Below are positions 2,277 to 64,000 of a stretch of 64,000 nucleotides of DNA, in pieces; the stretch's first letter is position 1, and every line of letters begins with the position of its first letter. This stretch comes from Escherichia phage EC.P2. Both the position numbers and the translations under genes were made by a program. The notes beneath the pieces are model-generated. The model was not told the DNA's origin, searched no databases, and saw only the letters and a program-made list of their open reading frames with translations. Where the stretch lies: sequence record PQ631072.1, one strand, 5' to 3'.

Positions 2277-2291
2277 AATTACTACAGATTG

Positions 2292-2428: not shown

Positions 2429-2511
2429 AGCCGGGTAGATTTAAAAGAGTATGGTACTCAATATGGCTCCAAACCATAGATCAAGGGGTTCGATTCCTCA
2501 CCTTGCTGCCA
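2429..2511 (+). tRNA. probable tRNA-Trp (anticodon CCA); 5' half irregular
   Basis: Anticodon stem 2462-2466/2474-2478 with loop CTCCAAA, T-loop TTCGATT, acceptor 3' strand 2501-2507 plus CCA 2509-2511; best 5' acceptor partner 2429-2435 has one mismatch and implies an insertion before the D-arm. Confidence 0.45.
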
Positions 2512-2516
2512 ATTAT

Positions 2517-2592
2517 TGTGGTATCGTACAGATGGTTAGTACACTCGACCGATAATCGAGAAACAACGGTTCGACTCCGTTTACCACGACCA
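2517..2592 (+). tRNA. tRNA-Ile (anticodon GAU)
   Basis: Acceptor 2517-2523/2582-2588, D-stem GTAC/GTAC, anticodon stem 2544-2548/2556-2560 with loop CCGATAA, T-loop TTCGACT, CCA 2590-2592. Confidence 0.75.
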
Positions 2593-49832: not shown

Positions 49833-50102
49833 CTAAAATGATTCGTTTGTCTCCATAATATATTGCATTTCCAAATCTTCCATATGTTTCTTAAATTGGT
49901 AAACAATTTCCGATGGGGAAATATCTATATCAAAAAGTTCTTTTGTACCAGAATAGAACCTAATACCATCAACAATAAGGCCACCATAATAATCCCAATC
50001 ACTTTCTCGTGAGAAAGGATTAGGTTCTTCATAATAGTAATCTACTTCAACAATAATAGGTTCTTTATTATCTTGTTTATACTCAAAATCAAAAGTGTTC
50101 AT
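49833..50102 (-). CDS. hypothetical protein (89 aa)
   Basis: ORF whose stop overlaps the upstream gene's start codon. Confidence 0.4.
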   Translation of the reverse strand: MNTFDFEYKQDNKEPIIVEVDYYYEEPNPFSRESDWDYYGGLIVDGIRFYSGTKELFDIDISPSEIVYQFKKHMEDLEMQYIMETNESF

Positions 50103-51046: not shown

Positions 51047-51057
51047 ATGGCTCCTTG

Positions 51058-52032
51058 TTAAAGACTTTCAATAACTTGACGACGCAGTTCATTGGCATCT
51101 GCAAGATTATAATTAAGACGAACGTGTTCTGCAAGCATCATACCACGATCTTCTGTGTATCTAGGGTTCCTCATTAGCTTGACAACTTCATAATGCCAAG
51201 ATGCTTTAGAATCTGCATAGATAACAGCCTTTGCATCTACCGGATTGAAGTACGGCAGCACAGGAGAACAGATAATAGGAAGACCCTTTGCACCTGCTTC
51301 CAAAATCTTCAAATTGCTTTTACAGTTGTTGAAGTCATTATCTACCAGAGGAGCAATTGCAATACTGTGACCGTCATACACAGACATATACTCACCTAAA
51401 TTTTTAATAGCTGGTTTATACTGTGCATTTGGAATTTTACGTTTTACTTTAACCCACTCCGCAGTAGTTAGATACTGACTATTATTTCCAACAGGTGCAG
51501 AAGGATACACTTCATACCCTGCAATTGTCAATAGTGTATCATCAAATGTATTAGCTACAAGAGATAAATCAGGTTCATGGCTTGCTCCTCCAGCCCAAAT
51601 AATAGGCGTGTCAGAATAACGGTCTTTTGTCAAAGTAAATTGACCTTCATCGTAAGGTAGTGCGTTTCTAATAACGACAACATTACGATTTAAATGACGA
51701 ATTTTGTAAGCCAGGTATTCTGTTGTTACAGTAACAACATCTGCTAACTTAATCATCTCTACAATAGTCTTTGAGTGATTAGTAAATACGCCAGCCATAT
51801 AATGTTCAGGATTAAGCGAATAAAAGTCATCTAAATCAACAATAATCTTAACACCTTGTGCCTTCAGGCGTTTAACTTCGTCTGATCCACGAGAATACAC
51901 TCTATTAAAAACTAAAACGTCTTTCTTAGGCTTAAACGTATTTCCCGCAAATGGCATTACAATACGATGGTAATCACAACCACTGCCTAACTTATTATCA
52001 CACTTAAGTACAGGGGTATTAGGATTTACCAT
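51058..52032 (-). CDS. glycosyltransferase, GT-B fold (GT4-like), paralog 2
   Basis: ADVVTVTTEYL...VVVIRNALPYDEGQF...KILEAGAKGLPIICSP; start moved to the Met that aligns with the paralog's N-terminus. Confidence 0.55.
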   Translation of the reverse strand: MVNPNTPVLKCDNKLGSGCDYHRIVMPFAGNTFKPKKDVLVFNRVYSRGSDEVKRLKAQGVKIIVDLDDFYSLNPEHYMAGVFTNHSKTIVEMIKLADVVTVTTEYLAYKIRHLNRNVVVIRNALPYDEGQFTLTKDRYSDTPIIWAGGASHEPDLSLVANTFDDTLLTIAGYEVYPSAPVGNNSQYLTTAEWVKVKRKIPNAQYKPAIKNLGEYMSVYDGHSIAIAPLVDNDFNNCKSNLKILEAGAKGLPIICSPVLPYFNPVDAKAVIYADSKASWHYEVVKLMRNPRYTEDRGMMLAEHVRLNYNLADANELRRQVIESL

Positions 52033-52705
52033 ATTTTTGAGCCTCCTCATAAGAGATAAAAGTTTTACCATTGCGAAGATCCTCCAGTGATTGTTTATAT
52101 TGTTCCCAGTTTACACCAATCCCCTGTTCTTTCTCTTCTTTTGACAGATTTGCAAAAGGTAAAGGATTATCTCCAAACACATCGTCAGGATGGATAAACG
52201 CCATAATTCGAATAGGGCATGGTACGCCGTGAATACCTCGGTTCAAACCTGCTAGTGGAACACGCTGAATCCACTCTGCATCTTCATATCCATAACCGTG
52301 GGTGTATGAGCGGAAATAGCCAGCTTTCTCAATAACTGCACGGGAATACATACCAAACTGGCACATACCTAGTTCCCAAATAACCACTTCACCTTCAATA
52401 CCTTTTACTTTATCTTTAAAATATTCAGGCATACCAAAGAAATCCCAGCCATTTTCCTTAGCCTGTTTTACAAAATATGTTTCCCAACCTGGCACAACCG
52501 GATAGCAATCATCATCAAAAATAAACCAGTAATCATACCCTTCATCATAAAACTTTTTCATCAGTTCATTACGGGCATATGCAACACCTTTTCGTTCCCG
52601 ATCATACTGTACAACAAAAGTAGCATTAGGATCAGTCACAAGATAATCTTTAAGAGGACGCTTACCTACAGTAATAACACCAACACCAATTTTTGTATTT
52701 TCCAA
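52019..52705 (-). CDS. glycosyltransferase, GT-A fold (GT2-like)
   Basis: TTG start; DxD-type motif FDDDCY and YGYEDAEW motif. Confidence 0.5.
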   Translation of the reverse strand: MENTKIGVGVITVGKRPLKDYLVTDPNATFVVQYDRERKGVAYARNELMKKFYDEGYDYWFIFDDDCYPVVPGWETYFVKQAKENGWDFFGMPEYFKDKVKGIEGEVVIWELGMCQFGMYSRAVIEKAGYFRSYTHGYGYEDAEWIQRVPLAGLNRGIHGVPCPIRIMAFIHPDDVFGDNPLPFANLSKEEKEQGIGVNWEQYKQSLEDLRNGKTFISYEEAQKYGKS

Positions 52706-52714
52706 AATAACTCC

Positions 52715-53278
52715 TTAAATAATTTTATTCATGTCTTGACAATGTAAAAGGTGTGAAACAGCTTTTCTAGGATCATCACTACCTAAACGGTATGTGTGAA
52801 ATAAATATAGCCCACGTAATAAACCTAGCCTTTTATTGTTAGCGTGTAATGCTTTAGAGAAAATTATATCAAACTGTATTGATCTTTCCTCAAAAGGGAT
52901 TTCATTCCACAGACTCTTACGAAAGAGAAGAAAGAATCCTGCTAAGATAGCATCTGTAGGTACTTCCTCTATTGAGTTTCCCCATTCTAGATGTGCTCTT
53001 TTTGCAATCTCAATGTGGTGTAATATATTTGGATCTTCACTTCTTTCATTATTAAATAATTGATATGTTGATCCCAATCTATTACAAGATGCACCAAGAA
53101 CATCAAAATCAGGATTTGAACGGACTATTGATTCCAACCAAGCAGGTTGTTCTGGAAGAAGAAACATTGTATCAATGTCTCTTAGGCAAATCCAACTATC
53201 TTCTGGTAAGACACTTATTGTGTCATTGATACCTTTTCCAATATCTCCAGAAAGATAGGGAGTTATGTGAAATATCAT
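52715..53278 (-). CDS. glycosyltransferase-like protein (putative)
   Basis: Weak GT-A-like features (DID acidic motif); adjacent to three glycosyltransferases. Confidence 0.3.
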   Translation of the reverse strand: MIFHITPYLSGDIGKGINDTISVLPEDSWICLRDIDTMFLLPEQPAWLESIVRSNPDFDVLGASCNRLGSTYQLFNNERSEDPNILHHIEIAKRAHLEWGNSIEEVPTDAILAGFFLLFRKSLWNEIPFEERSIQFDIIFSKALHANNKRLGLLRGLYLFHTYRLGSDDPRKAVSHLLHCQDMNKII

Positions 53279-54026: not shown

Positions 54027-54536
54027 TTAGCGATAGAATTGATGTTCTTTGTAGCGGTACACTAGAACCATATCTTTTTCCCAGTGTGCTCTTATTGTAG
54101 ATTTTTTAAAGTATAATGCTCCTTTTGTAATATCTAATGCAATTCGTAATTCTGGAAAATGGTTATCGAGATAAAGTAGACGTTCTGCTATAGCTTTAGC
54201 GTCTTTCCACTTATCGTGTTCCATAACGTTGAATGTCTTCGTGTAAGAGAATTGTCCTTTTTGAAACAAAACTTCTTTTATAGTATCAGGGAAATATGAA
54301 TCTCTCGCCCTATTCAATACTACATTACCAACAGCAGACATACCGCGCTTTCCTTGATTACGACTTTCTGCATAGATTGCACAAGCTAATAGATTTTCTT
54401 TACTATCACGCTTTGTACACTTGTGAACTACTTTAGCAGTTTTTACGTTTGCAGCTTCGGCTTGCGCCACAACAGGTGTAAATGTAAAAGCAGTTAAGGA
54501 TAGTAACGCAATTGCGACAAAGGTTTTTATTGACAA
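54027..54536 (-). CDS. secreted cell-wall hydrolase, SleB/CwlJ (Hydrolase_2) family
   Basis: N-terminal signal peptide (cleavage near AQA/EA); LLACAIYAESRNQ...GNVVLNRA...QFSY matches Hydrolase_2 signature; TTG start with AGGAGG RBS. Confidence 0.7.
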   Translation of the reverse strand: MSIKTFVAIALLSLTAFTFTPVVAQAEAANVKTAKVVHKCTKRDSKENLLACAIYAESRNQGKRGMSAVGNVVLNRARDSYFPDTIKEVLFQKGQFSYTKTFNVMEHDKWKDAKAIAERLLYLDNHFPELRIALDITKGALYFKKSTIRAHWEKDMVLVYRYKEHQFYR

Positions 54537-54598
54537 ACTTGCCTCCTATTTTGTTAAACGAACTTTTATTGTAACACAGAAGAGGCTATTTTGCAAGT

Positions 54599-54620
54599 GG
54601 AGGGGGATAATCCCCCTCTT
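54599..54620 (-). terminator. hairpin terminator
   Basis: GGAGGGGGA-TAA-TCCCCCTC hairpin just downstream of the 54629 ORF stop. Confidence 0.45.
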
Positions 54621-54628
54621 ACACTCTG

Positions 54629-55231
54629 TTAGATATTGTAAACCTTTGTATGAGTTACTACACCATCTTCTACAAAATCAATACGTTCTTGATCCGTAAC
54701 TAGTGCAGACAACACTTTAAATTTAATTTTTACACGTTCAAAAGCTGGTTGACCATCTTTAAGATAATTATGTTCAGTTGTCACTGTCTTGTTTACAAAA
54801 TCAACTTTTGCTTTACCGTTCTCGCGTAAGTGGAATGTTTTTCCTGCTTTATACACAATTTCAACATTACCTTCGAGAGTAATTCCTTCAAAAAGTTCAC
54901 CCTCTTCTTCATTTTCTTCACTTTTGAACAGACGACGAAACTCTTCCATATCAAGATAAACAACATCTTCAGAATAACTATCAGTAAGATATGTCTTACC
55001 CTCCATTAACCCGAAATATTGCCAGATTGCCGAATAAACATCACTAGATGATCCAAGGGTTTCTCTGAGTTTAGTTCCACGGATTACTTCATAAACTTCA
55101 AAATTGAAACCAGACTGCAAAGCATCAAACAGCACATCACTAACTTCTAAAGCATAATCTTCATTGTTGTCAATATCTACAAGAAAATTACCGCTACGAA
55201 TAAGTTTTTGACCTTCTAAAGTAATACTCAT
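54629..55231 (-). CDS. hypothetical acidic protein (200 aa)
   Basis: ORF with AGGAG RBS downstream of TerD terminator. Confidence 0.45.
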   Translation of the reverse strand: MSITLEGQKLIRSGNFLVDIDNNEDYALEVSDVLFDALQSGFNFEVYEVIRGTKLRETLGSSSDVYSAIWQYFGLMEGKTYLTDSYSEDVVYLDMEEFRRLFKSEENEEEGELFEGITLEGNVEIVYKAGKTFHLRENGKAKVDFVNKTVTTEHNYLKDGQPAFERVKIKFKVLSALVTDQERIDFVEDGVVTHTKVYNI

Positions 55232-55257
55232 TGTTTTCTCCTCTTTTATTTCAAATA

Positions 55258-55273
55258 TGCGCCCCGAAGGGCG
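55258..55273 (-). terminator. hairpin terminator after terD-like gene
   Basis: GCGCC-CCGAAG-GGCGC hairpin. Confidence 0.45.
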
Positions 55274-55295
55274 CTATGATTTATTACTTGATGTA

Positions 55296-55892
55296 TTACT
55301 CGAACCAATCGTCGCCAGCGCCAAACGCTTTAACTACATCGTAAATGTCAAGCCCAGCTTTACCTACACCATATGCTTTCAGTTTCCATTCGCTATCTTC
55401 TCGCACCAGGGAGGCAACGTGGCAAATGGTGTTACCTGCAAGTTCTGGAGCCAAGAAGTCAAAGTCCAGCAGTTCAACATTACGTTCATCATCGAAGATT
55501 TTAAGGAAACCTTCGGTAGCGTGACCAAGGCGTTTCTTACCCGTTTCGTCATCAATAGTAATTACGAATGCAATTTCCTGTGCTTCAGCAGAGATATTAT
55601 CCAGTGTAACATCAATCTGCTCCATCTGTCCTACACCATCACGAACATCTTCACCTGCAAAAGTAGAACGTTCAGGATCAAATTTCTGTGCGTAGCACAC
55701 CAGGTGACGAGGAGACAACAGTTCCGGCAGACCAGATGCATTGTGTCGGCAAATCAGAGCACTAACATCCAGATCCAGTTTTTCGTTAGATTTCCAAGAG
55801 AATTCCAGACGAATGCGTTTCAGTGCTGGTGCGATCTTTTTCAGAGAAACTTTTTCGCTAGAACCTTTTTTCAGGGAAATTTTCTGAGTCAT
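55296..55892 (-). CDS. terD: TerD-family protein (tellurite-resistance/stress-response TerD domain)
   Basis: ISLKKG...VSLKK, LDLDVSAL, AFVITIDDE, and C-terminal SEWKLKAYGVGKAGL segments follow the conserved TerD domain blocks. Confidence 0.65.
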   Translation of the reverse strand: MTQKISLKKGSSEKVSLKKIAPALKRIRLEFSWKSNEKLDLDVSALICRHNASGLPELLSPRHLVCYAQKFDPERSTFAGEDVRDGVGQMEQIDVTLDNISAEAQEIAFVITIDDETGKKRLGHATEGFLKIFDDERNVELLDFDFLAPELAGNTICHVASLVREDSEWKLKAYGVGKAGLDIYDVVKAFGAGDDWFE

Positions 55893-55965
55893 AATTTATT
55901 ATCTCCTTTGTTGTTAATTTACGTTGTCTATTTTACTAATCTTTTCTACAAAGTCAAGCGTTTTT

Positions 55966-56760
55966 TTACGCTTTTGCTCCGAATTTTTTAACCCACTCAC
56001 CAAACTCTTCAGATAACAATTTATCGTAAAGTTCTTCATCAGACAAGGACAAATCTGCAATACCGATAAAATCAACATTATCGTACTCTTTTGCCAAGTC
56101 TTTCAGGAATTTAAAGTTTGCATTACCTACACCAACCATAAACCAGTAAACAGGCGTATTGCGGTGTTTGTTCAGTAAGCTACGTACTGCTGAAGTATCC
56201 ATGTTTTCCCCGTCAGTTTGGAAGAAAATCATTGCAGGAGTACGATCAACTTGTGCATCAGTGTCTACAACCTGTTCTACAACAGTACGTGTTACTTCTA
56301 CAAGTTCTTTTTTACCAGTTAGTTTAGCAAGGAAACCCTTAGCTGGGACTTCTTCATACTCAACGACTTCGCGTGTAATATTTTTCATAGGTACACTACC
56401 GAAGTATGTATCATAGATCTCCTGCATTACTGGAGCATAAGCAGTACCACCATTGATGCAAACATTAGACATGCAAGAGCCGACATAATCATCATACACA
56501 TCAGCCGTTGCAGGAGGCAGTTCAAAAGAAGAACTATTGAAAGCCCACATGTCAATCTGTGCATTGTCATCAAACTTCATACCAAACGGCAGCAGTTTAC
56601 CTACAAAATCACTAACAGTGCCATCACGATACAGCTCACACATACTACCCGAAATATCTAAGGCGCTACCGACACGAAGAACAACATCGTTAATCTTTTT
56701 CTTACGCAGAGATACAGTAAGAGTTTCTTGACGTTTTTTAAGACTGATTTTATTGGACAT
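55966..56760 (-). CDS. vWA-domain protein (TerF/TerY-like)
   Basis: MIDAS-type motif LDISGSM in first 40 residues; adjacent to terD-like gene. Confidence 0.55.
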   Translation of the reverse strand: MSNKISLKKRQETLTVSLRKKKINDVVLRVGSALDISGSMCELYRDGTVSDFVGKLLPFGMKFDDNAQIDMWAFNSSSFELPPATADVYDDYVGSCMSNVCINGGTAYAPVMQEIYDTYFGSVPMKNITREVVEYEEVPAKGFLAKLTGKKELVEVTRTVVEQVVDTDAQVDRTPAMIFFQTDGENMDTSAVRSLLNKHRNTPVYWFMVGVGNANFKFLKDLAKEYDNVDFIGIADLSLSDEELYDKLLSEEFGEWVKKFGAKA

Positions 56761-56761
56761 A

Positions 56762-57031
56762 TTATTTCTCCTTTCTGAGTGTAATGTTAGTAACTTCTAA
56801 ATCCACTTCTACCATTTCTGTATCATATGAAATACAGCTAAGTTGACCTCTTTGTGAACCGTTCAGACACATTGCTTGGTTTGTATTAACTTTAATAAAC
56901 ACTAAGTTTCTGAACGTATCTAAACCAGAATCTTGATACGCAACATAATATACGAATGTATCACCTGCGTCAAGTTCTCCAAAACATTTAGGTTCATCTG
57001 ATTTATCGTCTTTGATATTAAATTTAAGCAC
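56762..57031 (-). CDS. hypothetical protein (89 aa)
   Basis: ORF in track, tightly coupled to neighbours. Confidence 0.4.
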   Translation of the reverse strand: MLKFNIKDDKSDEPKCFGELDAGDTFVYYVAYQDSGLDTFRNLVFIKVNTNQAMCLNGSQRGQLSCISYDTEMVEVDLEVTNITLRKEK

Positions 57032-57587
57032 TGTCTTCTCCTTTACCTGCCCTCCAGCCTAAATAGAAAGCCTCTCTGGTGATCTTTTGCAACTCGTTTA
57101 AAGAGATAGTTACAACTAAATTATCTTCAATTTCTAGCTTTGAGTCTTCTTCTGTCTCAATGCAAGTATTATGCACTTTGTGGTAAGGATTGTCAACACG
57201 TTTAAATTTATTATTTTCAGTGCTGAAGAAGCAATCTGGATCTTCTTCTCCATCACCCCAACCCTGGTTAGGGTCTTCTTCAGATCTTTCTGTTGGGATC
57301 TCACCTGTAAAGTGCTCTTCTAATACCATAGCGATACCATCTCCAAGATCGGAAGAGAACATCAAATTACAAACTTCTTCCCAAGGCATAGACCACTTAA
57401 ATCTTTTACGATTACCATGTTTATCTTCTTCGTTAGAGAAAACACTACCATAGCTATCATAATTGCCATACATCTCTTCAACAACTTTACCACCTTTCAA
57501 AAGAAATAGGTAGCAAGGAGAACCATCGAAAGAGGTAGAAAGAGCAGCATTGCCAGACTCTTTGCACAAGAAACTAAAACACCCCAT
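57024..57587 (-). CDS. hypothetical acidic protein (187 aa)
   Basis: ORF in track. Confidence 0.4.
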   Translation of the reverse strand: MGCFSFLCKESGNAALSTSFDGSPCYLFLLKGGKVVEEMYGNYDSYGSVFSNEEDKHGNRKRFKWSMPWEEVCNLMFSSDLGDGIAMVLEEHFTGEIPTERSEEDPNQGWGDGEEDPDCFFSTENNKFKRVDNPYHKVHNTCIETEEDSKLEIEDNLVVTISLNELQKITREAFYLGWRAGKGEDSA

Positions 57588-57787
57588 TATACACCAGCCT
57601 TAAGATCAATTAAAGCCAAAGTTGTTTCAGAATGTGTTTGCTCGTCTACAGGTGCAGTCATATGATAATACAAAAAGTCTTCGGCATCATACCAATCTGA
57701 TTCTTGACCTTGTTTCCAACCATCAATGAAAGCATCCTCCATAATGGTTTGTAATTCTTCACGAGTTAAGTGAATATCTTTATTCAT
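57587..57787 (-). CDS. hypothetical small protein
   Basis: ORF in track, start/stop overlaps with neighbours. Confidence 0.35.
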   Translation of the reverse strand: MNKDIHLTREELQTIMEDAFIDGWKQGQESDWYDAEDFLYYHMTAPVDEQTHSETTLALIDLKAGV

Positions 57788-58020
57788 TACACATTCTCCT
57801 CTTTTACCAATTCCATCGTTGAACTATCAAAACCATCTTTAGAAGAATAGGTATAGACAGAACGTAGTTCTCGCAGGACAGTAAATACATTAGGATCATC
57901 TAACCAAGCATCCTGGAGGAGAACATAACGATCTTCATTGTCATACTGGACAGCAATCATAGAACCAGACAGTTTGTAAATTTTAATATTCATAATATAT
58001 TTCTCCTTAAAGTAGACCAC
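57787..58020 (-). CDS. hypothetical small protein
   Basis: ORF in track. Confidence 0.35.
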   Translation of the reverse strand: MVYFKEKYIMNIKIYKLSGSMIAVQYDNEDRYVLLQDAWLDDPNVFTVLRELRSVYTYSSKDGFDSSTMELVKEENV

Positions 58021-59110
58021 GTTTAACAGTTTGAATCATACCATCTTCAAGAGATTGCACTTCTTGAATGTAATCAATACGAGCAGCACGGGCTTCAGTG
58101 TTGATTCGGTTAGTTTCTTCCAACATTTTAACTAAGTTTTCTTGATCGCGACGTAATGTTTCAATATCCAATACTTGACGATTAGCAAGTTGCGTAGCTT
58201 CAATTTGGTTTTGTGCAGCCAGATCACTACCCATTGCAATAGCAGCATTAAATTCATTCAGTACATTGTTCTGTGTATCGGCTGCTTTCTTCTGGCGTAG
58301 ACTTTCAATATACATAGAAAAGTTTGCAGAGTAAGCAGGAATAACATTATTCACAATATTACGGGCTGATCGCATCAAACTTGCAGATACTTTCTGCATA
58401 CTTTGTACACGTGGCCCCATCTGAACACACAGTAAACGCAAGGCTTTCAGGTCTGCAATACGAATTTCAAGCAGATCCATAGTATCACGAGTACGTTGAC
58501 GCTCTTCTACTTCATTTTCAGGTAGTGTATTAAGGCGAACTTCTTCTTTTTCATAAGTAGCTGTTAGAAGCTCTATATCCCTGTTTAAGCTAAGAGCATA
58601 TTTTGCAATAGCCTCTTCTAAACGTTGCAGATATCGTAAAGAATCTTCTTCTTTTTTCAAGTCTGTTTGGAGTGTCTTTACCAAACCTTCAATACGATTA
58701 TTGATGGTGTCAAATTCACCAAACAAATCTTCTTTCATACCTAATACTTTCTTAACTAGTTTACCTAAGCCTTTAGATTGTTTAATAGAATTAGGATCAA
58801 GTTGCTTTGCTTGCTTAATAAGTGCAGTTAAACGCTCACTCATTTCATCTCCCTGAGATGAACGCTGGTGTTTAAGCACTTCCGCATTAAGGTTACGAAG
58901 AGTAAGTCCTGCATCAGCACCAACCTGTTCAATCTCTTCACGAGACATTGGAGGCAGCATTTGTACAGGTCGTGCAACAGCAGGGGCATATACAGGGCTT
59001 GCATCCATAGCAGTTGGAGCAAACAAAGACTTACTTTTTTCTGTTGTTGCCGTGAATACACTCATTTCAGACGGTTTGCTTTTTACGGCACTGATAAAAG
59101 GACTGGACAT
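58007..59110 (-). CDS. TelA-like (toxic anion resistance family) protein, tentative
   Basis: 367-aa mostly helical, charged protein between the vWA/TerD and TerC genes; family assigned from context and size, not from a verified motif. Confidence 0.35.
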   Translation of the reverse strand: MSSPFISAVKSKPSEMSVFTATTEKSKSLFAPTAMDASPVYAPAVARPVQMLPPMSREEIEQVGADAGLTLRNLNAEVLKHQRSSQGDEMSERLTALIKQAKQLDPNSIKQSKGLGKLVKKVLGMKEDLFGEFDTINNRIEGLVKTLQTDLKKEEDSLRYLQRLEEAIAKYALSLNRDIELLTATYEKEEVRLNTLPENEVEERQRTRDTMDLLEIRIADLKALRLLCVQMGPRVQSMQKVSASLMRSARNIVNNVIPAYSANFSMYIESLRQKKAADTQNNVLNEFNAAIAMGSDLAAQNQIEATQLANRQVLDIETLRRDQENLVKMLEETNRINTEARAARIDYIQEVQSLEDGMIQTVKRGLL

Positions 59111-59178
59111 TCAATTTCCTCCATATTCTTTAGTAGATGGTGATACCTCTGTACCACCATCATAACACAAATTAAGTA

Positions 59179-60030
59179 TTAAACAAACATATCTAAATAA
59201 TTTGTAGTAATAAATGCTCCATCTGCTTCCAGATTAACATAACCAGTAGCATTAGTGGTTAAGAAATCCAGATCGAAGGACTCTTTAACACCCCGTACCT
59301 CAACACGAGAGATATCGAATACAGGTAGTGTAACAGCCTCTTCGTGCAATACCGTACCTTTGTAGGTTGCCTTAATGATAAACTTGATATTACCCGTTCC
59401 CGCATCATACAAAACACTTTCAAAGCCTTTGAGAGTATACTTATCACCAGAGGTGAAGTGCAAAGTTGCTTTGTTTACAGTACGTTTTTTACGAGGAGTT
59501 CCTTTCACACGTTTATGATCACTACGTTTTTTGTATTTAGGAATGAATACAAACGATACACTCTCAAGAAAAGTATCAACATCAAGGATTTTAATATCCT
59601 CTGTTGCAGCAAATTTTGAAGTCGTTGCATCAAAATGCTTTGCTCTGCGATCATACATAAAGATATCAAACCGATCTTCTAAATCAAACAAATTGTGTAT
59701 CTTAATTTCAGAATGCTTGCACATTGCAGCAACCTTAAACTCTTCAAAACGTGGGTGTTCTACAAGCTCTTCAAGTTTTACACCAAAGACAGTATATTGT
59801 TTCGAAGTTTTTTCTGGCGTTGGCATTACAGAAGCATAATCACCGATTGCGCTTTTAAAGCAAAATTGTTCTTGACCTGTATTTTTACCAACGAATTTAC
59901 AGTATTCGTCATCGTGCATACTTTCTTTGGTAGTACCAACAAACTCAAAACCATCTTTATTCTTCTCAAGAATTTCTTGATTAAAGATCCAACCTTCCAG
60001 GCGATACACTTTACCAACTTCTAGTTTCAT
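59179..60030 (-). CDS. hypothetical protein (283 aa)
   Basis: ORF in track. Confidence 0.45.
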   Translation of the reverse strand: MKLEVGKVYRLEGWIFNQEILEKNKDGFEFVGTTKESMHDDEYCKFVGKNTGQEQFCFKSAIGDYASVMPTPEKTSKQYTVFGVKLEELVEHPRFEEFKVAAMCKHSEIKIHNLFDLEDRFDIFMYDRRAKHFDATTSKFAATEDIKILDVDTFLESVSFVFIPKYKKRSDHKRVKGTPRKKRTVNKATLHFTSGDKYTLKGFESVLYDAGTGNIKFIIKATYKGTVLHEEAVTLPVFDISRVEVRGVKESFDLDFLTTNATGYVNLEADGAFITTNYLDMFV

Positions 60031-60065
60031 CTGTTTCTCCTTCTTATTTAATCTGTATTAAATTA

Positions 60066-60656
60066 TTAACGACGACGTGAGCTACTAAAACTACGTTTCG
60101 ACGAAGAATAACTTTTCGAAGACTTACTATAAGAGCTAATAGGGCTTGAGTAAGACTTACGAGCAGAGTAATTACTATTCACTTTTGTTGTTGATGGGCG
60201 TGAATACGTTTGTACACTTTGCTGCTTAATTGTGTTTTGTTTAGTGGTTGTATATGTATTCCCTTGTTTATCATAAAAACTATGCTTTTGTGTTGTATAT
60301 GCTTTACTATTAGTTGTAGGAGCAGCGTTGTTATTGATAATTGTTGTATTGCTACCGCCATCTCTATAACCACCACCGCCACTATTACCACTCAACATAT
60401 GACCAAGAAGCATACCTGTAGCAAATTCACCTACACCAGAAGAACCACTGCCGCCTCCTTGCACAACAACTGTTGAAGGTTGTGCAGGTGCTGCTTGAAC
60501 AACTTGAGGTGCAGGTTGATTTACATATTGTTCATCTACCATCTGATTTGGTGTTTGTTGGTAACGTTGGTTTTGTACATTTTCAGAATCATCACAACCT
60601 ACCAGCAATGCACTACCTAATACAACTGCAACAATAAAAGATTTAATGTTTTTCAT
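60066..60656 (-). CDS. lipoprotein, Gly-rich with Ser/Tyr/Lys-rich C-terminus
   Basis: Start set at Met with GAGAGGG RBS; signal peptide with lipobox LVGC. Confidence 0.5.
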   Translation of the reverse strand: MKNIKSFIVAVVLGSALLVGCDDSENVQNQRYQQTPNQMVDEQYVNQPAPQVVQAAPAQPSTVVVQGGGSGSSGVGEFATGMLLGHMLSGNSGGGGYRDGGSNTTIINNNAAPTTNSKAYTTQKHSFYDKQGNTYTTTKQNTIKQQSVQTYSRPSTTKVNSNYSARKSYSSPISSYSKSSKSYSSSKRSFSSSRRR

Positions 60657-60849
60657 TTGTAACCCTCTCATTTAAAGTCTCAACACAATTTTTAAAATCT
60701 CTAGAGAAACAATACATCTGTTCTCCGTTCCTGTTGATAGTAATTGTATGGTTATCAACATATGTTGTCAAGATAAAAATCAAACAAAATAACCCTAAAG
60801 CAAAACAAATATTTTCAAACAGAATCCAAAGAACACGTAAAACCACCAT
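60643..60849 (-). CDS. small membrane protein (tentative)
   Basis: 68-aa ORF with one hydrophobic helix. Confidence 0.3.
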   Translation of the reverse strand: MVVLRVLWILFENICFALGLFCLIFILTTYVDNHTITINRNGEQMYCFSRDFKNCVETLNERVTNEKH

Positions 60850-60864
60850 CAGATCACCTCAACA

Positions 60865-60882
60865 AAGCCCCCGAAGGGGCTT
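60865..60882 (-). terminator. hairpin terminator after terC-like gene
   Basis: Minus-sense AAGCCCC-TTCG-GGGGCTT, identical to plus hairpin at 38764. Confidence 0.5.
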
Positions 60883-60888
60883 AATGAA

Positions 60889-61866
60889 TTAAGCAACAGT
60901 CTGGTCTTCTTTTTCAGGGAAGATTAAACTTGCAATAACACCCAGCCCCAGAGTACCTAACACAATATACATACTGATCGTCGGATCAATGTGTGCTGGC
61001 AGGAAACTCACTTTTGCGTGCAGAGTTTCTGCAAACGGGTGATACATCAGTTTTACACCCACAAATACCAGGACTACGATAACTGCTTTCTCCAGATGAA
61101 CCAAATATTTCAGTGCAACACTAAGGACAAAGAACAGAGCACGTAGACCTAAAATTGCACACAGCATTGAAGAAAATACAAGCAGAGGTTCTTGTGTCAC
61201 TGCAATTACTGCTGGAACAGAGTCTACTGCAAAGATTACGTCAACCATTTCCATTACAAACACACAAACCAATGCAGGAGTTGCTACACGAACACCATTT
61301 TTGATTGTGAAGAACTTCTCACCATCCATCTGATCAGATACAGGGAACAGCTTACGAACAATGCGAGTAGCCCAGTGTTTAGAGTAATCAACTTCTGCGT
61401 CATTATCTCCAGCGAATACCATTTTAGCTGCGCAGAAAAGGATGACCGCACCGAAGAAGATATTAACATACCAGCCCAAACTCAACAAGTAAGTACCTAC
61501 TGCTACAAACACACCTCGGAAGACAATCGCACCTGCAATACCCCAAAGTAGAATCTTGTGCTGCAAGTGTGTGCTTTTAATACCAAAACTTGCGAATACT
61601 GCCACAAATACTACTAAGTTATCTACAGAAAGAGATTTCTCCAACACATACCCACTCAAGAACAAGCTCGCAAAATCAGCACCGTGTTGGAAGTATACAA
61701 AACCATAGTAGGCTAATGATACCCCAATCCAGAAAATTGACCAGCCAATTGCAGATTTAAATGAAATTTCTTTGTTTTCTCTGTGTCCAAAGAAATCAAT
61801 ACAAATCGACAAGACTAAAATACCCACTAAAACAACCACATCAATAATTGGGAAACCCAGTTGCAT
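60889..61866 (-). CDS. terC: TerC-family integral membrane protein
   Basis: Multiple TM helices; LEKSLSVDNLVVFVAVF matches the TerC signature, with a second DSVPAV repeat. Confidence 0.65.
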   Translation of the reverse strand: MQLGFPIIDVVVLVGILVLSICIDFFGHRENKEISFKSAIGWSIFWIGVSLAYYGFVYFQHGADFASLFLSGYVLEKSLSVDNLVVFVAVFASFGIKSTHLQHKILLWGIAGAIVFRGVFVAVGTYLLSLGWYVNIFFGAVILFCAAKMVFAGDNDAEVDYSKHWATRIVRKLFPVSDQMDGEKFFTIKNGVRVATPALVCVFVMEMVDVIFAVDSVPAVIAVTQEPLLVFSSMLCAILGLRALFFVLSVALKYLVHLEKAVIVVLVFVGVKLMYHPFAETLHAKVSFLPAHIDPTISMYIVLGTLGLGVIASLIFPEKEDQTVA

Positions 61867-61943
61867 TCTTTTCTCCTCTTTAATGCGGAGGACAATCCTC
61901 CGCTCTATGTCGTATACTATAAACTGTTTTTAAAGAAAGTCAA

Positions 61944-62192
61944 CTAGTTCAGTTCTGTAATTTTAAGTTTATCTTCTTTGTTAATGATAGGGAAAGCTAC
62001 AGCATCACCTACATCATCAATAAAGCAAACAGCAAGACCACCTTCCACTTTGCTAACCTGACCATTAAAGGCGTGATACGGGGCAGGAACAATATCTCCA
62101 TCTTCAAGGAGAATAGCCTCATAAACCTTACCAACAGTACAATCACGAGTGTTTATAAATTTTTCAAGCACTTCAACATTTACTTTACGCAT
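61944..62192 (-). CDS. hypothetical protein (82 aa)
   Basis: ORF in track. Confidence 0.4.
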   Translation of the reverse strand: MRKVNVEVLEKFINTRDCTVGKVYEAILLEDGDIVPAPYHAFNGQVSKVEGGLAVCFIDDVGDAVAFPIINKEDKLKITELN

Positions 62193-62206
62193 ATAAAGAT
62201 CCTCTC

Positions 62207-62413
62207 TTATTTGTTAGATTGAAAGATACCACGAAGTACCGCAAGAATGAACGTCACACAGACTACACTCCAAAACGTTACAGGAACATGATGCCAGTCT
62301 AAGCCGATAATGTCAATCATATAGTTGTATGCTAAAAGCAGTAGCCAACTAGGGATTAACACAATCAAGAACACAACAATAAAACAACCTAATACTGCTA
62401 AAACACCTGCCAT
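62207..62413 (-). CDS. small membrane protein
   Basis: 68 aa, two hydrophobic segments. Confidence 0.4.
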   Translation of the reverse strand: MAGVLAVLGCFIVVFLIVLIPSWLLLLAYNYMIDIIGLDWHHVPVTFWSVVCVTFILAVLRGIFQSNK

Positions 62414-62422
62414 ACTTTCTCC

Positions 62423-63139
62423 TTATTTCAGTTTGTAAACAATTACATTTAAACCTTTGTTCACTAGAGTTTCTTCGATCATAAGTTTTACAATATTCCA
62501 AGAACCTCCAGCCAAACCACAACCAAGCATTGGTAAACCTACAATTTTACCGCCTGAAGATACAACATCGTCTCCCATACTATCTAACGCATTGTAGATA
62601 GCTTCATAATTCAGGTCACGCTTACCTTCCTCACGACGACTATAACCATATTGTCCATATAAATTATAAATTGTCAAATTGTTTTCTGTATACTTAGTAA
62701 ACGTACCTAATTTTTTATAATCACCACGTTTAGTGGCACAATCTGCTTTAAACGCACCAGGCCACTTGCTTTTAATTTTTGGTGCAATACCACTACCCAT
62801 AGTGCAAAAACAGTTACAGCAGTGTGCTATAGCGTCTATATCGCCTCTCTCTGCTGCTGCTAAAAGATCACCGTATACCTCAATGATACCTGGTGGATAA
62901 CTTGTTACAATCTCATCTTCCCAGTACATTTGCTCTACACCACCGATCAGTGCAAAGTTTTGTGTGATGCGATCATCAATATAATTAAGACCTGAAACAT
63001 ACACAGCATATTCATCCTGTGCTGTAATGCCTTGTACACGAATTCTTAAGACACCATCTTTATCTGTTGCTACACGCCCAAAATCTTTTTCTGTAATATT
63101 GGTGATAGGATCTCCGAAAGTCGTCACTTTATTAGACAT
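62423..63139 (-). CDS. macro-domain protein (ADP-ribose binding/processing family)
   Basis: DAIAHCCNCFCTMGSGIA and GLPMLGCGLAGGSW resemble the two conserved macro-domain blocks; start set at internal Met with GGGG RBS. Confidence 0.5.
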   Translation of the reverse strand: MSNKVTTFGDPITNITEKDFGRVATDKDGVLRIRVQGITAQDEYAVYVSGLNYIDDRITQNFALIGGVEQMYWEDEIVTSYPPGIIEVYGDLLAAAERGDIDAIAHCCNCFCTMGSGIAPKIKSKWPGAFKADCATKRGDYKKLGTFTKYTENNLTIYNLYGQYGYSRREEGKRDLNYEAIYNALDSMGDDVVSSGGKIVGLPMLGCGLAGGSWNIVKLMIEETLVNKGLNVIVYKLK

Positions 63140-63989
63140 AATAATCCCCTTTAACATTAGATTTGTTGATAATGTTGCTTTCAAAAAATTGACGCAGGAA
63201 ATCAAAGTTCTCTTTGTATTTTTCAATATTATTGTAACCTTCTGCAAGGCAACCAAAGAACAGTTGTTCTACATAATACAAAGGAAGTTGTGAAAGTGCA
63301 ATTTTAAAATCAACTTCGCTTTGACTCATTAGATACTTAATAGGACGAACCAAACATTTAGCATCAGTTTCTTGCTTAATCATTTTAATAAAAGCTGCCA
63401 GGTTATTGATATAGTTGAAGTTAAGTGCAGCTTCGGTGTTGGCTTCTGTACCTTCATACTTTGCAAAGTACAGGAAAAACGTATCGTTTTCAACACCTTC
63501 TTTGTCTAAAATTTCAATAAGTTTTTCTTCGTGTGTTCCTGTAATATTAACATCATCAATGAAAATCAGAGTTTTATTACCCCAGAAATCACGATTGATA
63601 GAGAAAGTGTCACCATCGATCAAAGCCTTACGATCTTCTTTGCTAAGAAATCCATAATCATTGATATAACTCACTTTACGATGAACGATATCCCACTCTA
63701 CTGCTTTACCTCCTTTGATAGAGATTAGGTAGTTGAGGTGATCTACAAAATGTTCAGATAACACTGTAGCTGCATTTTTCACATAGTTATATGGAGATGG
63801 AATAACAACAAAACTTTCATTTACTAGTCGTTCTTCATATTTAGAAAAGAAACTTTCAGCTAGAATGCGTCCCATTCTTTTTGCTGCCTGGTTACTACCA
63901 AACTTTAGTTTGGAATAATCTGCAATGTTAAATTTTGCTTCCTTCAGGTTAGTAAAAGTATTAGCAAAATGTTGAATTTGATTACGCAT
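63132..63989 (-). CDS. phosphoribosyltransferase-fold protein (type I PRTase/PRPP-binding motif); 5' end may lie beyond window
   Basis: PRPP-binding loop KTLIFIDDVNITGTHE; frame remains open to window edge upstream of the first Met. Confidence 0.5.
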   Translation of the reverse strand: MRNQIQHFANTFTNLKEAKFNIADYSKLKFGSNQAAKRMGRILAESFFSKYEERLVNESFVVIPSPYNYVKNAATVLSEHFVDHLNYLISIKGGKAVEWDIVHRKVSYINDYGFLSKEDRKALIDGDTFSINRDFWGNKTLIFIDDVNITGTHEEKLIEILDKEGVENDTFFLYFAKYEGTEANTEAALNFNYINNLAAFIKMIKQETDAKCLVRPIKYLMSQSEVDFKIALSQLPLYYVEQLFFGCLAEGYNNIEKYKENFDFLRQFFESNIINKSNVKGDYYV

Positions 63990-64000
63990 TAATAAGTTCC

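What the first reader, a model, noticed from the sequence alone, without database searches (positions are those of the whole stretch)
55296..63989. Phage-borne Ter-like stress-response module (TerD, vWA, TelA-like, TerC) adjacent to macro-domain and PRTase genes
Within about 9 kb of the minus-strand block there are a TerD-domain protein, a vWA protein with a MIDAS motif, a TelA-sized helical protein and a TerC membrane protein. They are interleaved with unknown ORFs, a lipoprotein and two small membrane proteins, and followed by a macro-domain protein and a PRPP-loop protein. In bacteria, ter genes form membrane-linked stress clusters often found with a PRTase-containing biosynthetic module, and vWA/TerY components occur in antiviral systems. 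Finding the set inside a virulent phage suggests host-takeover or counter-defence use rather than literal tellurite resistance. The module continues past the window edge.
Basis: partly seen in the sequence, partly recalled or inferred. Interest (0 to 1): 0.85.

Follow-up and report, generated by a model that had tools for sequence, protein, structure and literature searches.

The report
Known Ter stress-gene cluster in phage
This E. coli phage really does carry four "tellurite-resistance" (Ter) membrane-stress genes next to nucleotide-metabolism genes, but the same cluster is already annotated and discussed in its close relatives, and what it does for the phage has never been tested.

Summary
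On the minus strand of 55296-63989 lie TerD, a vWA-TerF-like protein with a full MIDAS motif, TelA, TerC (Alx subfamily), a macro domain and a ComF-like PRTase. All are strong Pfam matches. A HAD hydrolase overlaps the PRTase start at the window edge.

The window is a phi92-like virulent myophage (Justusliebigvirus, Stephanstirmvirinae), 98-99% identical to many GenBank phages where these genes are already labelled. Papers on relatives ZCKP1 and phiKp34, and a jumbo-phage survey, already describe phage Ter genes and propose colicin protection and superinfection exclusion. No experimental test was found.

- TelA-vWA-TerC-TerD is a compact operon in three other phage lineages; here it is dispersed and carries its own conserved sigma-70-like promoters.
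- HAD-PRTase_3 is a strict two-gene cassette. It lies 24-86 kb from the Ter core in other phages, yet was found in the same genome in every record I could cross-check.
- The TerD calcium motif is degenerate, TerB is absent, and the macro domain lacks the TARG1 catalytic pair.

Verdict: real, ordinary for this phage group, already known; mechanism still open.

The parts
63982..64000 (-). 3' end of a HAD-family hydrolase gene. The rest lies beyond the window (218 aa in Bas62).
   Evidence: The window's last bases translate to ..ELINA*, matching the Bas62 HAD C-terminus. The stop overlaps the PRTase ATG. Pfam PF00702, E=5e-6. Motif I is SFDVW(N/K)TL in 9/9 homologues.
63132..63989 (-). PRTase_3 (ComF-like type I phosphoribosyltransferase), 285 aa, with a C-terminal helical domain.
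62423..63157 (-). Macro-domain protein, 244 aa. Macro domain is at residues ~95-244; the genus-specific N-terminal ~95 aa are of unknown function.
   Evidence: PF01661, E=3e-7. PDB relatives: SCO6735, BT1257 and TARG1. DarG macro model E=1e-13, far below its cut-off. The phAPEC8 orthologue matches only the C-terminal 150 aa.
62207..62413 (-). Small two-TM membrane protein (68 aa).
   Evidence: Hydropathy. 60% identical in phAPEC8 at the same position.
61944..62192 (-). 82-aa ORF of unknown function.
   Evidence: No Pfam hit. Annotated CDS in Bas62.
61872..61943 (-). Sigma-70-like promoter (TTGACT-N16-TATAGT, 61943-61916) followed by a 5'-UTR hairpin, upstream of terC.
   Evidence: The -35 box and the hairpin (with one compensatory pair) are conserved in phAPEC8, where a host-type promoter is annotated.
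60889..61866 (-). TerC/Alx-subfamily integral membrane protein, 325 aa.
   Evidence: PF03741, E=1e-38. TIGR03718 322.8 bits against a 246.4 cut-off. Multiple hydrophobic segments.
60643..60849 (-). Small one-TM membrane protein (68 aa).
   Evidence: Hydropathy. 48% identical in phAPEC8.
60066..60671 (-). Predicted lipoprotein (lipobox LLVG|C) with a low-complexity Gly/Ser/Thr-rich body.
   Evidence: Sequence, hydropathy, 35% identical in phAPEC8. No Pfam hit.
59179..60030 (-). 283-aa genus-restricted ORF of unknown function.
   Evidence: Only two homologue clusters, both from this genus. Only the C-terminal ~100 aa resemble phAPEC8 gp055. No Pfam hit.
58007..59110 (-). TelA (toxic anion resistance family), 367 aa. 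First gene of a tightly packed TelA-to-vWA run.
   Evidence: PF05816, E=5e-34. PHROG 5890, E=2e-136. Gene overlaps listed.
57787..58020 (-). 77-aa ORF, overlapping telA by 14 nt.
   Evidence: No family hit.
57587..57787 (-). 66-aa ORF sharing a ~30-aa helical motif with the C-terminus of the next gene.
   Evidence: E=0.002 to u187; E=2e-13 to phAPEC8 gp060.
57024..57587 (-). 187-aa protein. Its N-terminal ~135 aa belong to a highly conserved phage-only family (MGCFSF..GNYDSYG..DPNQGWG).
   Evidence: 293 homologues, alignment A1, AF2 pLDDT 85. No fold match. Not Ter-linked in another contig.
56762..57031 (-). 89-aa ORF, conserved and duplicated in phAPEC8.
   Evidence: 64% and 36% matches. No Pfam family.
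55966..56760 (-). Stand-alone vWA-TerF-like protein, 264 aa, with a MIDAS motif and a ~45-aa insertion.
   Evidence: PF10138, E=1e-38 in two stretches. DISGS at residues 35-39. Equals phi92 gp173.
55930..55957 (-). Sigma-70-like promoter (TTGACT-N16-TAAAAT) upstream of terD.
   Evidence: Both hexamers and their spacing are conserved in phiKp34, where a promoter is annotated, although the TerD proteins are only 27% identical.
55296..55892 (-). TerD-domain protein, 198 aa, with a degenerate calcium-binding motif.
   Evidence: PF02342, E=5e-28. Aligned to Klebsiella TerD 2KXT: GDNRTGEGDGDDE versus GED-VRDGVGQME.
55259..55274 (.). GC-rich palindromic hairpin (GCGCCC-TTCG-GGGCGC) just downstream of terD. 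Probable terminator or RNA end.
54027..54536 (-). Neighbour, not a proven part: SleB-like cell-wall hydrolase with an N-terminal signal-like segment. It also sits next to the Ter genes in phAPEC8 and phiKp34.
   Evidence: PF07486, E=7e-20. Synteny. Hydrophobic N-terminus.

Best explanation
The region is the phage version of the Ter membrane-stress system.

Shown:
- It has four core parts: TelA, a stand-alone vWA-TerF-like MIDAS protein, a TerC/Alx-type membrane protein and one TerD.
- These are long-resident phage genes, not a recent capture from host ter operons.
- They sit in a minus-strand gene block alongside DNA polymerase, primase-helicase and anaerobic ribonucleotide reductase genes.
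- Conserved sigma-70-like promoters lie in front of terC and terD.

Inferred, from the phenotypes of bacterial ter operons:
- Host RNA polymerase makes the proteins early in infection.
- They assemble at the inner membrane as a metal-binding complex.
- The complex conditions the infected cell's envelope so that it tolerates or excludes further insults until lysis. Such insults would be a second phage's DNA injection, pore-forming colicins and envelope stress.
- This is infected-cell protection and superinfection exclusion, not tellurite detoxification.

Neighbouring units:
- The HAD-PRTase_3 pair is a separate, translationally coupled two-gene unit. It probably makes or converts a nucleoside-like small molecule from PRPP. 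It may feed the Ter core as a signal, because it shares a genome with the Ter core in every phage record I could cross-check.
- The macro-domain protein is most likely an independent ADP-ribose-processing accessory gene.

Long residence in phages:
- Region GC is 0.36-0.38, like the rest of the window.
- TerC is <=49% and TerD <=32% identical to any of more than 2,200 plasmid copies.
- Orthologues are 65-81% identical in Phapecoctavirus.

A recurrent phage unit:
- The same four genes, in the order TelA-vWA-TerC-TerD, form compact operons in Pseudomonas phage phiPsa374, Caulobacter phages CcrBL9 and CcrColossus, and Rhizobium phage RHph_TM30.

Operon structure and promoters:
- telA through vWA overlap or abut.
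- Promoter-like sites sit only in the 73- and 77-nt gaps before terD and terC.
- They are conserved in phiKp34 and phAPEC8, where promoters were independently annotated.

Phenotypes of bacterial ter genes:
- A Klebsiella terC deletion shows decreased phage resistance, per the section heading in that paper.
- TerC is needed for tolerance of polymyxin B and cetylpyridinium chloride (PMC9933665).

Same reading already published for phages:
- PMC6141743 and PMC7824862.

HAD-PRTase_3 link:
- The pair is adjacent in all 10 contexts examined.
- All 22 cross-checkable non-E. coli phage records with PRTase_3 also carry vWA-TerF.
Against: - No experiment on any phage Ter gene was found.
- The TerD calcium motif is only partly kept, so metal sensing may not work as it does in Klebsiella TerD.
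- TerB and the TerZ/A/E paralogues are absent. Whelan's work implicates terZ in the bacterial phenotypes, so those phenotypes may not transfer.
- The Ter genes are interleaved with 10 unknown ORFs, and the order differs between genera.
- HAD-PRTase_3 lies 24-86 kb from the Ter core in other phages. It has no Ter gene within 8-20 kb in three metagenomic contigs, in phage XaC1 and in a Rhizobium plasmid.
- The HAD lacks the Asp+2 general acid of typical phosphatases, so the simple 'nucleotide to nucleoside' scheme is uncertain.
- Early expression is inferred from promoter-like sequences only. The scan found no more such sites than in shuffled sequence overall (40 versus 34 +/- 5.5).
Confidence: 0.45

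Rival explanations
1. Metal handling for the phage's own needs. The TerC/Alx protein moves Mn2+ (or Zn2+) across the inner membrane. TerD, vWA and TelA act as metal-binding accessories. The purpose would be to metalate exported phage proteins, such as the signal-bearing SleB-like hydrolase, or to tune metal pools for phage enzymes.
For: - TerC scores above the curated cut-off of the 'TerC/Alx family metal homeostasis' model.
- TerC-family roles in Mn export and in metalation of exoenzymes are cited in PMC12054061 (refs 34, 35, 44).
- Klebsiella TerC confers Zn/Mn resistance.
- The vWA protein has a MIDAS metal site.
- A secreted-type cell-wall hydrolase sits next to the Ter genes in three genera.
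- Anaerobic RNR genes and, in phiKp34, a Bfd-like ferredoxin are neighbours.
- Stand-alone TerC occurs in Vibrio, Proteus, Pectobacterium and Aeromonas phages.
Against: - It does not explain why TelA, vWA and TerD travel with TerC as a fixed four-gene operon in several lineages.
- The TerD calcium motif is degenerate.
- In Klebsiella, TerC was dispensable for metal-induced stress in one study.
- No yybP-ykoY Mn riboswitch lies upstream of terC.
Confidence: 0.2
2. Counter-defence against host immunity. The Ter core would hold up the membrane potential against abortive-infection effectors that depolarise the membrane. The macro domain would remove ADP-ribose marks laid down by defence toxins of the DarT type. 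HAD-PRTase_3 would restore or divert nucleotide pools attacked by defence enzymes.
For: - The macro domain is most similar to the SCO6735/BT1257/TARG1 clade and matches the DarG macro model at E=1e-13.
- NAD-salvage genes and a macro homologue lie close to the Ter core in phiPsa374 and CcrBL9.
Against: - No PADLOC model matches any Ter, PRTase or HAD protein.
- The DarG score (48.8 bits) is far below the 250-bit cut-off, and no DarT partner is present.
- The residues aligned with TARG1 Lys84 and Asp125 are Gln and Ala, so DNA de-ADP-ribosylation of the DarG/TARG1 type is not predicted.
- No paper was found linking these genes to escape from a defence system.
Confidence: 0.2
3. Not one module. 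The Ter core, the HAD-PRTase_3 cassette, the macro gene and the unknown ORFs are unrelated accessory genes. They share only the non-structural, minus-strand region of the genome.
For: - HAD-PRTase_3 is far from Ter genes or without them nearby in seven other contexts.
- Macro homologues occur in other contexts (phiPsa374 next to NamPT; XaC1).
- u283 and u200 are not conserved even in the sister genus.
- u187's family occurs away from Ter genes.
- Gene order differs between phiKp34 and this phage.
Against: - PRTase_3 and vWA-TerF co-occur at genome level in every cross-checkable record, across at least three lineages. Each gene is present in under 0.5% of 50,697 phage records.
- The jumbo-phage survey reports a Ter system with PRTases and HAD in Acinetobacter phage ME3.
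Confidence: 0.3
4. Literal tellurite or toxic-anion resistance given to the host as a fitness gift.
For: Only the family names and GenBank labels ('tellurite resistance').
Against: - The phage belongs to a group known as virulent, so the infected host does not survive to benefit.
- TerB and TerZ/A/E are missing.
- The proteins are highly diverged from plasmid ter genes.
- Even for bacteria, the tellurite phenotype is regarded as incidental.
Confidence: 0.03

Closest known systems
Ter genes of close relatives: phi92 gp172/173/178, phAPEC8 gp052-066, Klebsiella phages ZCKP1 and phiKp34 (Stephanstirmvirinae)
   Same: - Orthologous genes. Nucleotide identity to Justusliebigvirus records is 98-99%.
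- Protein identity to Phapecoctavirus is 65-81%.
- The set TerC, TelA, vWA, TerD, HAD and PRTase is the same.
- Already labelled in GenBank and discussed in PMC4690881, PMC6141743 and PMC8386662.
   Different: - phiKp34 has two TerD genes, a different gene order and no macro gene next to the PRTase.
- The phAPEC8 macro protein lacks the N-terminal ~95 aa, and phAPEC8 lacks u200.
Compact phage Ter operon TelA-vWA-TerC-TerD (Caulobacter CcrBL9 and CcrColossus, Rhizobium RHph_TM30, Pseudomonas phiPsa374); described for jumbo phages by Iyer, Anantharaman, Krishnan, Burroughs and Aravind 2021
   Same: The same four families occur, one copy each, with no TerB.
   Different: - Here the four genes are spread over 6.6 kb and in the order TerC...TelA...vWA-TerD.
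- Ten other ORFs are interleaved, and there are at least two internal promoters.
- The Caulobacter TerC-like protein is of the DUF475 type.
Bacterial terZABCDEF operon of IncHI2 plasmids and pathogenicity islands (R478, E. coli O157, Klebsiella)
   Same: It shares the TerC and TerD families and the vWA domain of TerF. It is the source of the phage-inhibition, colicin-resistance and envelope-tolerance phenotypes.
   Different: - The phage set has no TerB, no TerZ/A/E paralogues and no TerW/X/Y.
- Its vWA is not fused to TerD.
- TelA is present, whereas in bacteria it belongs to the separate telAB/kilA system (per PMC8386662).
- Identity is only 31-49%.
- PRTase_3 is absent from all the enterobacterial ter plasmids; only 17 plasmid hits were found, mostly Rhizobium.
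Bacillus subtilis yceCDEFGH envelope-stress operon (TerD x3, TerC, YceG, TelA) - from my own knowledge, not tested here
   Same: It combines TerD, TerC and TelA without TerB, and is linked to envelope stress.
   Different: The phage has one TerD and adds a vWA-TerF-like protein. No YceG homologue was detected.
Ter-linked biosynthetic module (PRTases, HAD, ATP-grasp, C-C lyase) of Anantharaman, Iyer and Aravind 2012, as summarised in PMC7824862
   Same: A PRTase of a Pfam family defined from that work (PF15610) is paired with a HAD hydrolase next to Ter genes.
   Different: - Only two of the enzymes are present. No ATP-grasp or lyase was found in the flanks.
- The pair is often far from Ter genes.
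- The HAD has Trp at the Asp+2 position.
SCO6735 / BT1257 / TARG1 (OARD1) macrodomains and the DarG antitoxin
   Same: Sequence similarity covers the whole macro fold: E=3e-15 to SCO6735/BT1257, 2e-10 to TARG1, and 1e-13 to the DarG model.
   Different: - The TARG1 catalytic Lys/Asp positions are Gln/Ala, as in SCO6735 and BT1257.
- There is no DarT.
- There is an extra N-terminal domain of unknown function.

Membership tests
TerD family (PF02342) | Full-length match to the TerD domain above the Pfam gathering score | tested here: met
   98.2 bits against a 25.3 cut-off, residues 5-180. E=9e-15 to Klebsiella TerD 2KXT.
TerD family (PF02342) | Acidic calcium-binding motif GDN(R/L)TG(E/A)GDGDDE of Klebsiella TerD (motif recalled from Pan et al. 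2011) | tested here: inconclusive
   The aligned segment is GED-VRDGVGQME. It is one residue shorter and lacks three of the four acidic residues of the GDGDDE stretch. The DLD motif earlier in the protein is kept.
TerC/Alx family (PF03741, TIGR03718) | Score above the curated cut-off, and a polytopic membrane protein | tested here: met
   TIGR03718 322.8 bits against a 246.4 cut-off. Multiple hydrophobic segments.
TelA (PF05816) | Near full-length match above the gathering score | tested here: met
   118.3 bits against a cut-off of 30, residues 57-362 on model positions 13-330 of 332.
vWA-TerF-like (PF10138) | Match above the gathering score with a MIDAS motif (DxSxS...T...D) | tested here: met
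   133.8 bits against a 29.4 cut-off. DISGS at residues 35-39. Thr in NGGTAY and Asp in QTDGEN read from the sequence.
TerF proper (TerD fused to vWA) | N-terminal TerD domain on the same polypeptide | tested here: not met
   No TerD hit on the 264-aa vWA protein. TerD is a separate gene with its own promoter-like site.
Classical terZABCDEF operon | TerB present, and several TerD paralogues (TerZ, TerA, TerD, TerE) | tested here: not met
   No PF05099 (TerB) hit and only one TerD among the 15 ORFs scanned from 54027 to 63989. The two 68-aa membrane ORFs were not scanned. Four ORFs beyond the window edge were also scanned.
Phage-type Ter core (TelA + vWA-TerF + TerC + TerD) | All four families present within one gene neighbourhood of a phage genome | tested here: met
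   All four lie within 55296-61866. The same set occurs in four other phage genomes.
Ter-linked nucleoside-like biosynthetic module | PRTase plus HAD phosphoesterase adjacent to Ter genes | tested here: met
   The HAD stop overlaps the PRTase_3 start. terC is 1.3 kb downstream.
Ter-linked nucleoside-like biosynthetic module | Additional enzymes (ATP-grasp, C-C bond lyase, second PRTase) | tested here: not met
   No such Pfam hits in the window ORFs or in the four ORFs upstream of the HAD. The 386-aa neighbour is an AAA ATPase.
Ter-linked nucleoside-like biosynthetic module | Consistent physical linkage of PRTase_3-HAD to Ter genes | tested here: not met
   No Ter homologue in the flanks of six other HAD-PRTase_3 loci (tblastn E<0.01) or within 20 kb in XaC1. 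Genome-level co-occurrence is nevertheless complete where it could be checked.
Type I PRTase fold | PRPP-binding loop (acidic pair followed by T-G-x-T/H) and a Rossmann-like core | tested here: met
   [not shown]
HAD phosphatase | Motif I DxDx(T/V), with Asp+2 as the general acid/base | tested here: not met
   Motif I is D-V-W-N/K-T in 9/9 homologues. The nucleophile Asp and motifs II-IV are kept; Asp+2 is an invariant Trp.
TerY-P triad antiviral system | TerY-type vWA with a PP2C phosphatase and a Ser/Thr kinase | tested here: not met
   No PADLOC hit for the vWA protein or its neighbours. No kinase or phosphatase Pfam hits.
DarTG toxin-antitoxin | DarG equivalog score, and an adjacent DarT | tested here: not met
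   NF048014 48.8 bits against a 250 cut-off. No DarT-like neighbour.
TARG1-type macrodomain hydrolase | Catalytic Lys84/Asp125 pair (identity of the pair recalled from the literature) | tested here: not met
   In the alignment to 4J5R the equivalent residues are Gln and Ala, as in SCO6735 and BT1257.

The most novel reading that the evidence does not exclude
Virulent phages run a two-part system of their own. The HAD-PRTase_3 cassette, with its unusual Asp-x-Trp HAD, makes a so far unknown nucleoside-like small molecule from PRPP. This molecule switches on or tunes a TelA/vWA/TerC/TerD membrane complex. The complex seals the infected cell against superinfection, colicins or defence-triggered depolarisation. 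In phages with an exported cell-wall hydrolase, it could thereby also prevent premature lysis. The genome-level co-occurrence of the two units across unrelated phage lineages, despite distances of 24-86 kb, is the main hint.
Probability: 0.15. Interest if true: 0.7.

Novelty: already known. Interest (0 to 1): 0.25.

Why it matters
The Ter system is one of the oldest unexplained bacterial "resistance" loci. It links phage inhibition, colicin resistance and envelope tolerance, and its mechanism is still unknown. Virulent phages keep a stripped-down four-gene version. This makes phages such as phi92 and Bas62 a simple, genetically tractable place to learn what the core does, and whether the PRTase-HAD pair makes a signal for it.

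For this window in particular, nothing is new. The genes are already annotated and the same interpretation is in print. The practical value is as a pointer to an experiment, not as a discovery.

Tried and rejected
- Unknown ORF 59179-60030. Homologues exist only within the genus, so no useful alignment could be built and I ran no further search on it.
- ORF 54629-55231. It is absent at this position in phAPEC8, has no Pfam or PADLOC hit, and was not pursued.
- A possible fifth conserved component. The ~290-aa helical proteins next to the Ter core in phiKp34 and CcrBL9 looked TelA-like by eye, but BLASTP was not significant (E=0.06-2).
- Riboswitch upstream of terC. TerC genes often carry yybP-ykoY, but Rfam found only 14 tRNAs in the window.
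- PADLOC defence models. Only the macro domain matched (DarG); nothing matched the Ter, PRTase or HAD proteins.
- Solved structures by sequence. There are none for TelA, vWA-TerF or PRTase_3.
- Literature. The founding paper (PMC4104200) is not held, so its content is cited only through PMC7824862. Nothing was found on PF15610. No BASEL text was found on the macrodomain annotation.
- Recent capture from host ter operons. Rejected on identity and composition.

Full report
**What the window is.** The 8.7-kb region is 98-99% identical over its full length to more than 50 sequenced E. coli myophages of the phi92 group (Justusliebigvirus, Stephanstirmvirinae). These include pEC-M2929-1AR.1, W22, ECGD1 and the BASEL phage JohannJBalmer (Bas62). 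It is 80-90% identical to another ~50. GC content of the region (0.36-0.38) matches the rest of the window. GC skew shows that the region belongs to the minus-strand gene block that starts near 42 kb.

**Checking the observation.**
- Pfam gives TerD (55296-55892, E=5e-28), vWA-TerF-like (55966-56760, E=1e-38), TelA (58007-59110, E=5e-34), TerC (60889-61866, E=1e-38), Macro (E=3e-7) and PRTase_3 'ComF-like' (63132-63989, E=1e-41). PHROGs agree.
- TerC passes the curated cut-off of the TerC/Alx subfamily model (322.8 against 246.4 bits).
- The vWA protein carries DISGS at residues 35-39, plus the downstream Thr and Asp of a MIDAS site (and direct reading).
- The macro ORF is better started at the ATG at 63157, as annotated in Bas62, than at the TTG at 63256.
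- The lipoprotein (lipobox LLVGC) and the two small membrane proteins are supported by hydropathy.
- The module does run past the window. The last 18 bases encode ..ELINA*, the C-terminus of a 218-aa HAD hydrolase. Its stop overlaps the PRTase start codon (ATGCGTAA).
- Further upstream in Bas62 lie two small ORFs, an AAA ATPase and the anaerobic ribonucleotide reductase genes.

**Operon anatomy.** Two runs of genes abut or overlap: telA, four small ORFs and vWA; and HAD, PRTase and macro with the next two small ORFs. The only sizeable gaps in the Ter part hold good sigma-70-like sites.
- TTGACT-N16-TATAGT lies 77 nt upstream of terC, and TTGACT-N16-TAAAAT lies 73 nt upstream of terD.
- The terD site keeps both hexamers and the spacing in Klebsiella phage phiKp34, where a promoter is annotated, although the two TerD proteins are only 27% identical.
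- The terC site keeps its -35 box and a 5'-UTR hairpin, with one compensatory pair, in phAPEC8. A host-type promoter is annotated there.
- A GC-rich hairpin follows terD.
- Overall the scan found no more promoter-like sites than in shuffled sequence. The argument therefore rests on position and conservation, not on counts.

**Which genes belong together.** Comparison with phAPEC8 (sister genus), phiKp34, Caulobacter phages CcrBL9 and CcrColossus, Rhizobium phage RHph_TM30 and Pseudomonas phage phiPsa374 gives a clear picture.
- In the last four, TelA, vWA-TerF, a TerC-type membrane protein and TerD form a compact operon in that order.
- In this phage family the same four genes are spread over 6.6 kb, reordered and interleaved with ten other ORFs.
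- Conserved with phAPEC8 at 35-81% identity are HAD, PRTase, the macro core, both small membrane proteins, TerC, the lipoprotein, TelA, the 66-, 187- and 89-aa ORFs, vWA, TerD and the SleB-like hydrolase.
- The 200-aa ORF (54629-55231) has no counterpart there. The 283-aa ORF (59179-60030) is genus-restricted.

**The PRTase-HAD pair.** HAD followed directly by PRTase_3 is a strict two-gene cassette in all ten contexts examined. These are this phage, phAPEC8, phiKp34, RHph_TM30, CcrColossus, XaC1, three metagenomic phage contigs and the Rhizobium plasmid pRL10.
- Outside Stephanstirmvirinae it is not next to Ter genes. None was found in the flanks by tblastn.
- The Ter operon lies about 25 kb away in CcrColossus and 86 kb away in RHph_TM30.
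- Yet every non-E. coli phage record with PRTase_3 that I could cross-check also has a vWA-TerF gene. That is 22 records: Klebsiella, Citrobacter, Caulobacter, Brevundimonas and Rhizobium phages, plus one Phapecoctavirus-like record labelled Pseudomonas. Each gene is present in under 0.5% of 50,697 phage records.
- The reverse does not hold. phiPsa374-like phages and most Caulobacter phages have the Ter core without PRTase_3.
- The pair is therefore physically separable but looks functionally tied to the Ter core. I could not compute a phylogenetically corrected statistic.

The enzyme features are as follows.
- The HAD keeps the nucleophile Asp and motifs II-IV, but has an invariant Trp where phosphatases have the second Asp. 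The textbook 'nucleotide to nucleoside' step is therefore uncertain.
- PRTase_3 is absent from the ~2,200-2,600 enterobacterial ter plasmids.

**Other component details.**
- The TerD calcium motif of Klebsiella TerD (GDNRTGEGDGDDE) aligns with GED-VRDGVGQME and is therefore degenerate.
- No TerB and no second TerD were found among the 15 ORFs scanned in the region or the 4 scanned beyond the window edge.
- phi92 'gp173 TerD' in an older RAST list is in fact the vWA protein.
- The macro domain belongs with SCO6735, BT1257 and TARG1. It matches the DarG macro model only weakly relative to that model's cut-off. It has Gln and Ala at the positions aligned with the TARG1 catalytic Lys and Asp.
- The macro N-terminal ~95 aa are specific to this genus.
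- Phage TerC and TerD are at most 49% and 32% identical to plasmid copies. The genes are old residents of phage genomes, not recent captures.

**What is already known.**
- GenBank records of near-identical phages label these genes tellurite, toxic-anion or stress resistance proteins, TerC, vWA, phosphoribosyltransferase, macrodomain and HAD.
- A 2015 cocktail metagenome paper lists phi92 gp172, gp173 and gp178 as Ter proteins.
[quoted passage not shown] It proposes colicin protection and prevention of superinfection.
- The phiKp34 paper describes terC, the terF-type vWA, two terD genes and telA as possible antiviral genes.
- Iyer et al. 2021 describe Ter systems in jumbo 'and certain other related smaller tailed phages', including a version with PRTases and HAD. 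They propose competition with superinfecting phages.
- I found no experimental test in any phage.

**How it most likely works.** Bacterial ter genes give phage inhibition, colicin resistance and tolerance of envelope-active agents, and terC and terD are among the required genes. The simplest transfer to a virulent phage has three steps.
- The core is made early from host-type promoters.
- It sits at the inner membrane.
- It keeps the infected cell intact and closed to competitors until lysis.

I give this 0.45. The rivals are as follows.
- Metal handling by TerC/Alx for phage proteins: 0.2.
- Counter-defence, including the macro domain: 0.2.
- Literal tellurite resistance: 0.03.
- A structural rival, that the 9 kb is not one module: 0.3. 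It overlaps with the others rather than excluding them.

**Verdict.** The finding is real and correctly read at the level of protein families. However, it is a standard, annotated feature of this phage subfamily, with the same interpretation already published. Novelty is 'already known' and interest is 0.25. The open part is the mechanism, and whether HAD-PRTase_3 makes a ligand for the Ter core. That reading has a probability of about 0.15 and would be of real interest if true.

Noticed in passing
[not shown]
   Followed up: partly
window 57587-57787 and 57024-57110 (-); L006 18294-18692: A ~30-aa helical motif (L..EL..I...A...GW..G) is shared by the 66-aa ORF, the C-terminus of the 187-aa ORF and phAPEC8 gp060. 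It looks like a small module shuffled between neighbouring genes.
   Followed up: no
L001 22683-23339 and homologues in L002-L004, L006, L009-L012: The HAD hydrolase that always precedes PRTase_3 has the invariant motif I SFDVW(N/K)TL. The second catalytic Asp of HAD phosphatases is a Trp in 9 of 9 divergent members. This hints at a non-standard chemistry.
   Followed up: partly
window 61872-61915 (-); L006 ~13590-13625: A stem-loop in the terC 5' UTR (GCGGAGGA...TCCTCCGC) is kept in phAPEC8 with one compensatory A-U to G-C change. No Rfam family matches it.
   Followed up: partly
window 60889-61866 (-): The TerC allele is 94-96% identical in some Phapecoctavirus phages (Mt1B1_P17, P3322, BI-EHEC, phiWec190) but only ~71% in most others. 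This suggests recent exchange of this one gene between the two genera.
   Followed up: no
window 54027-54536 (-): A SleB-like cell-wall hydrolase with a signal-peptide-like N-terminus (..VVAQA|EA) stays next to the Ter genes in three genera. It is annotated as the endolysin in phAPEC8. If it is exported before lysis, membrane stability would matter for lysis timing.
   Followed up: no
window 50102-53278 (-): Four consecutive glycosyltransferase-like genes lie just downstream of the Ter region. The ZCKP1 paper suggests such genes modify surface polysaccharide to block superinfection.
   Followed up: no
window 77-2589 (+): An array of 14 tRNA genes lies at the start of the window.
   Followed up: no
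L005 3900-6346; L007 19661-20996: NAD-salvage genes (NamPT, NadM-type adenylyltransferase, PRPP synthetase) lie within 3-10 kb of the Ter operon in phiPsa374 and CcrBL9. In phiPsa374 a homologue of this window's macro protein also lies nearby. An 'ADP-ribose binding protein' also lies 8 kb from HAD-PRTase_3 in XaC1 (L015).
   Followed up: no
L002 9349-10227; L007 13734-14609: Helical proteins of ~290 aa flank the Ter core in phiKp34 and CcrBL9. They show collinear but non-significant similarity to TelA (BLASTP E=0.06-2). They may be a divergent TelA paralogue that this phage lacks.
   Followed up: partly
GenBank MG065639, MG065645, MG065656, MG065689: Records named 'Campylobacter phage' with Campylobacter jejuni as host are 98.8% identical to this E. 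coli phage genus over the whole region. The host label is probably wrong, or the records are contaminated.
   Followed up: no
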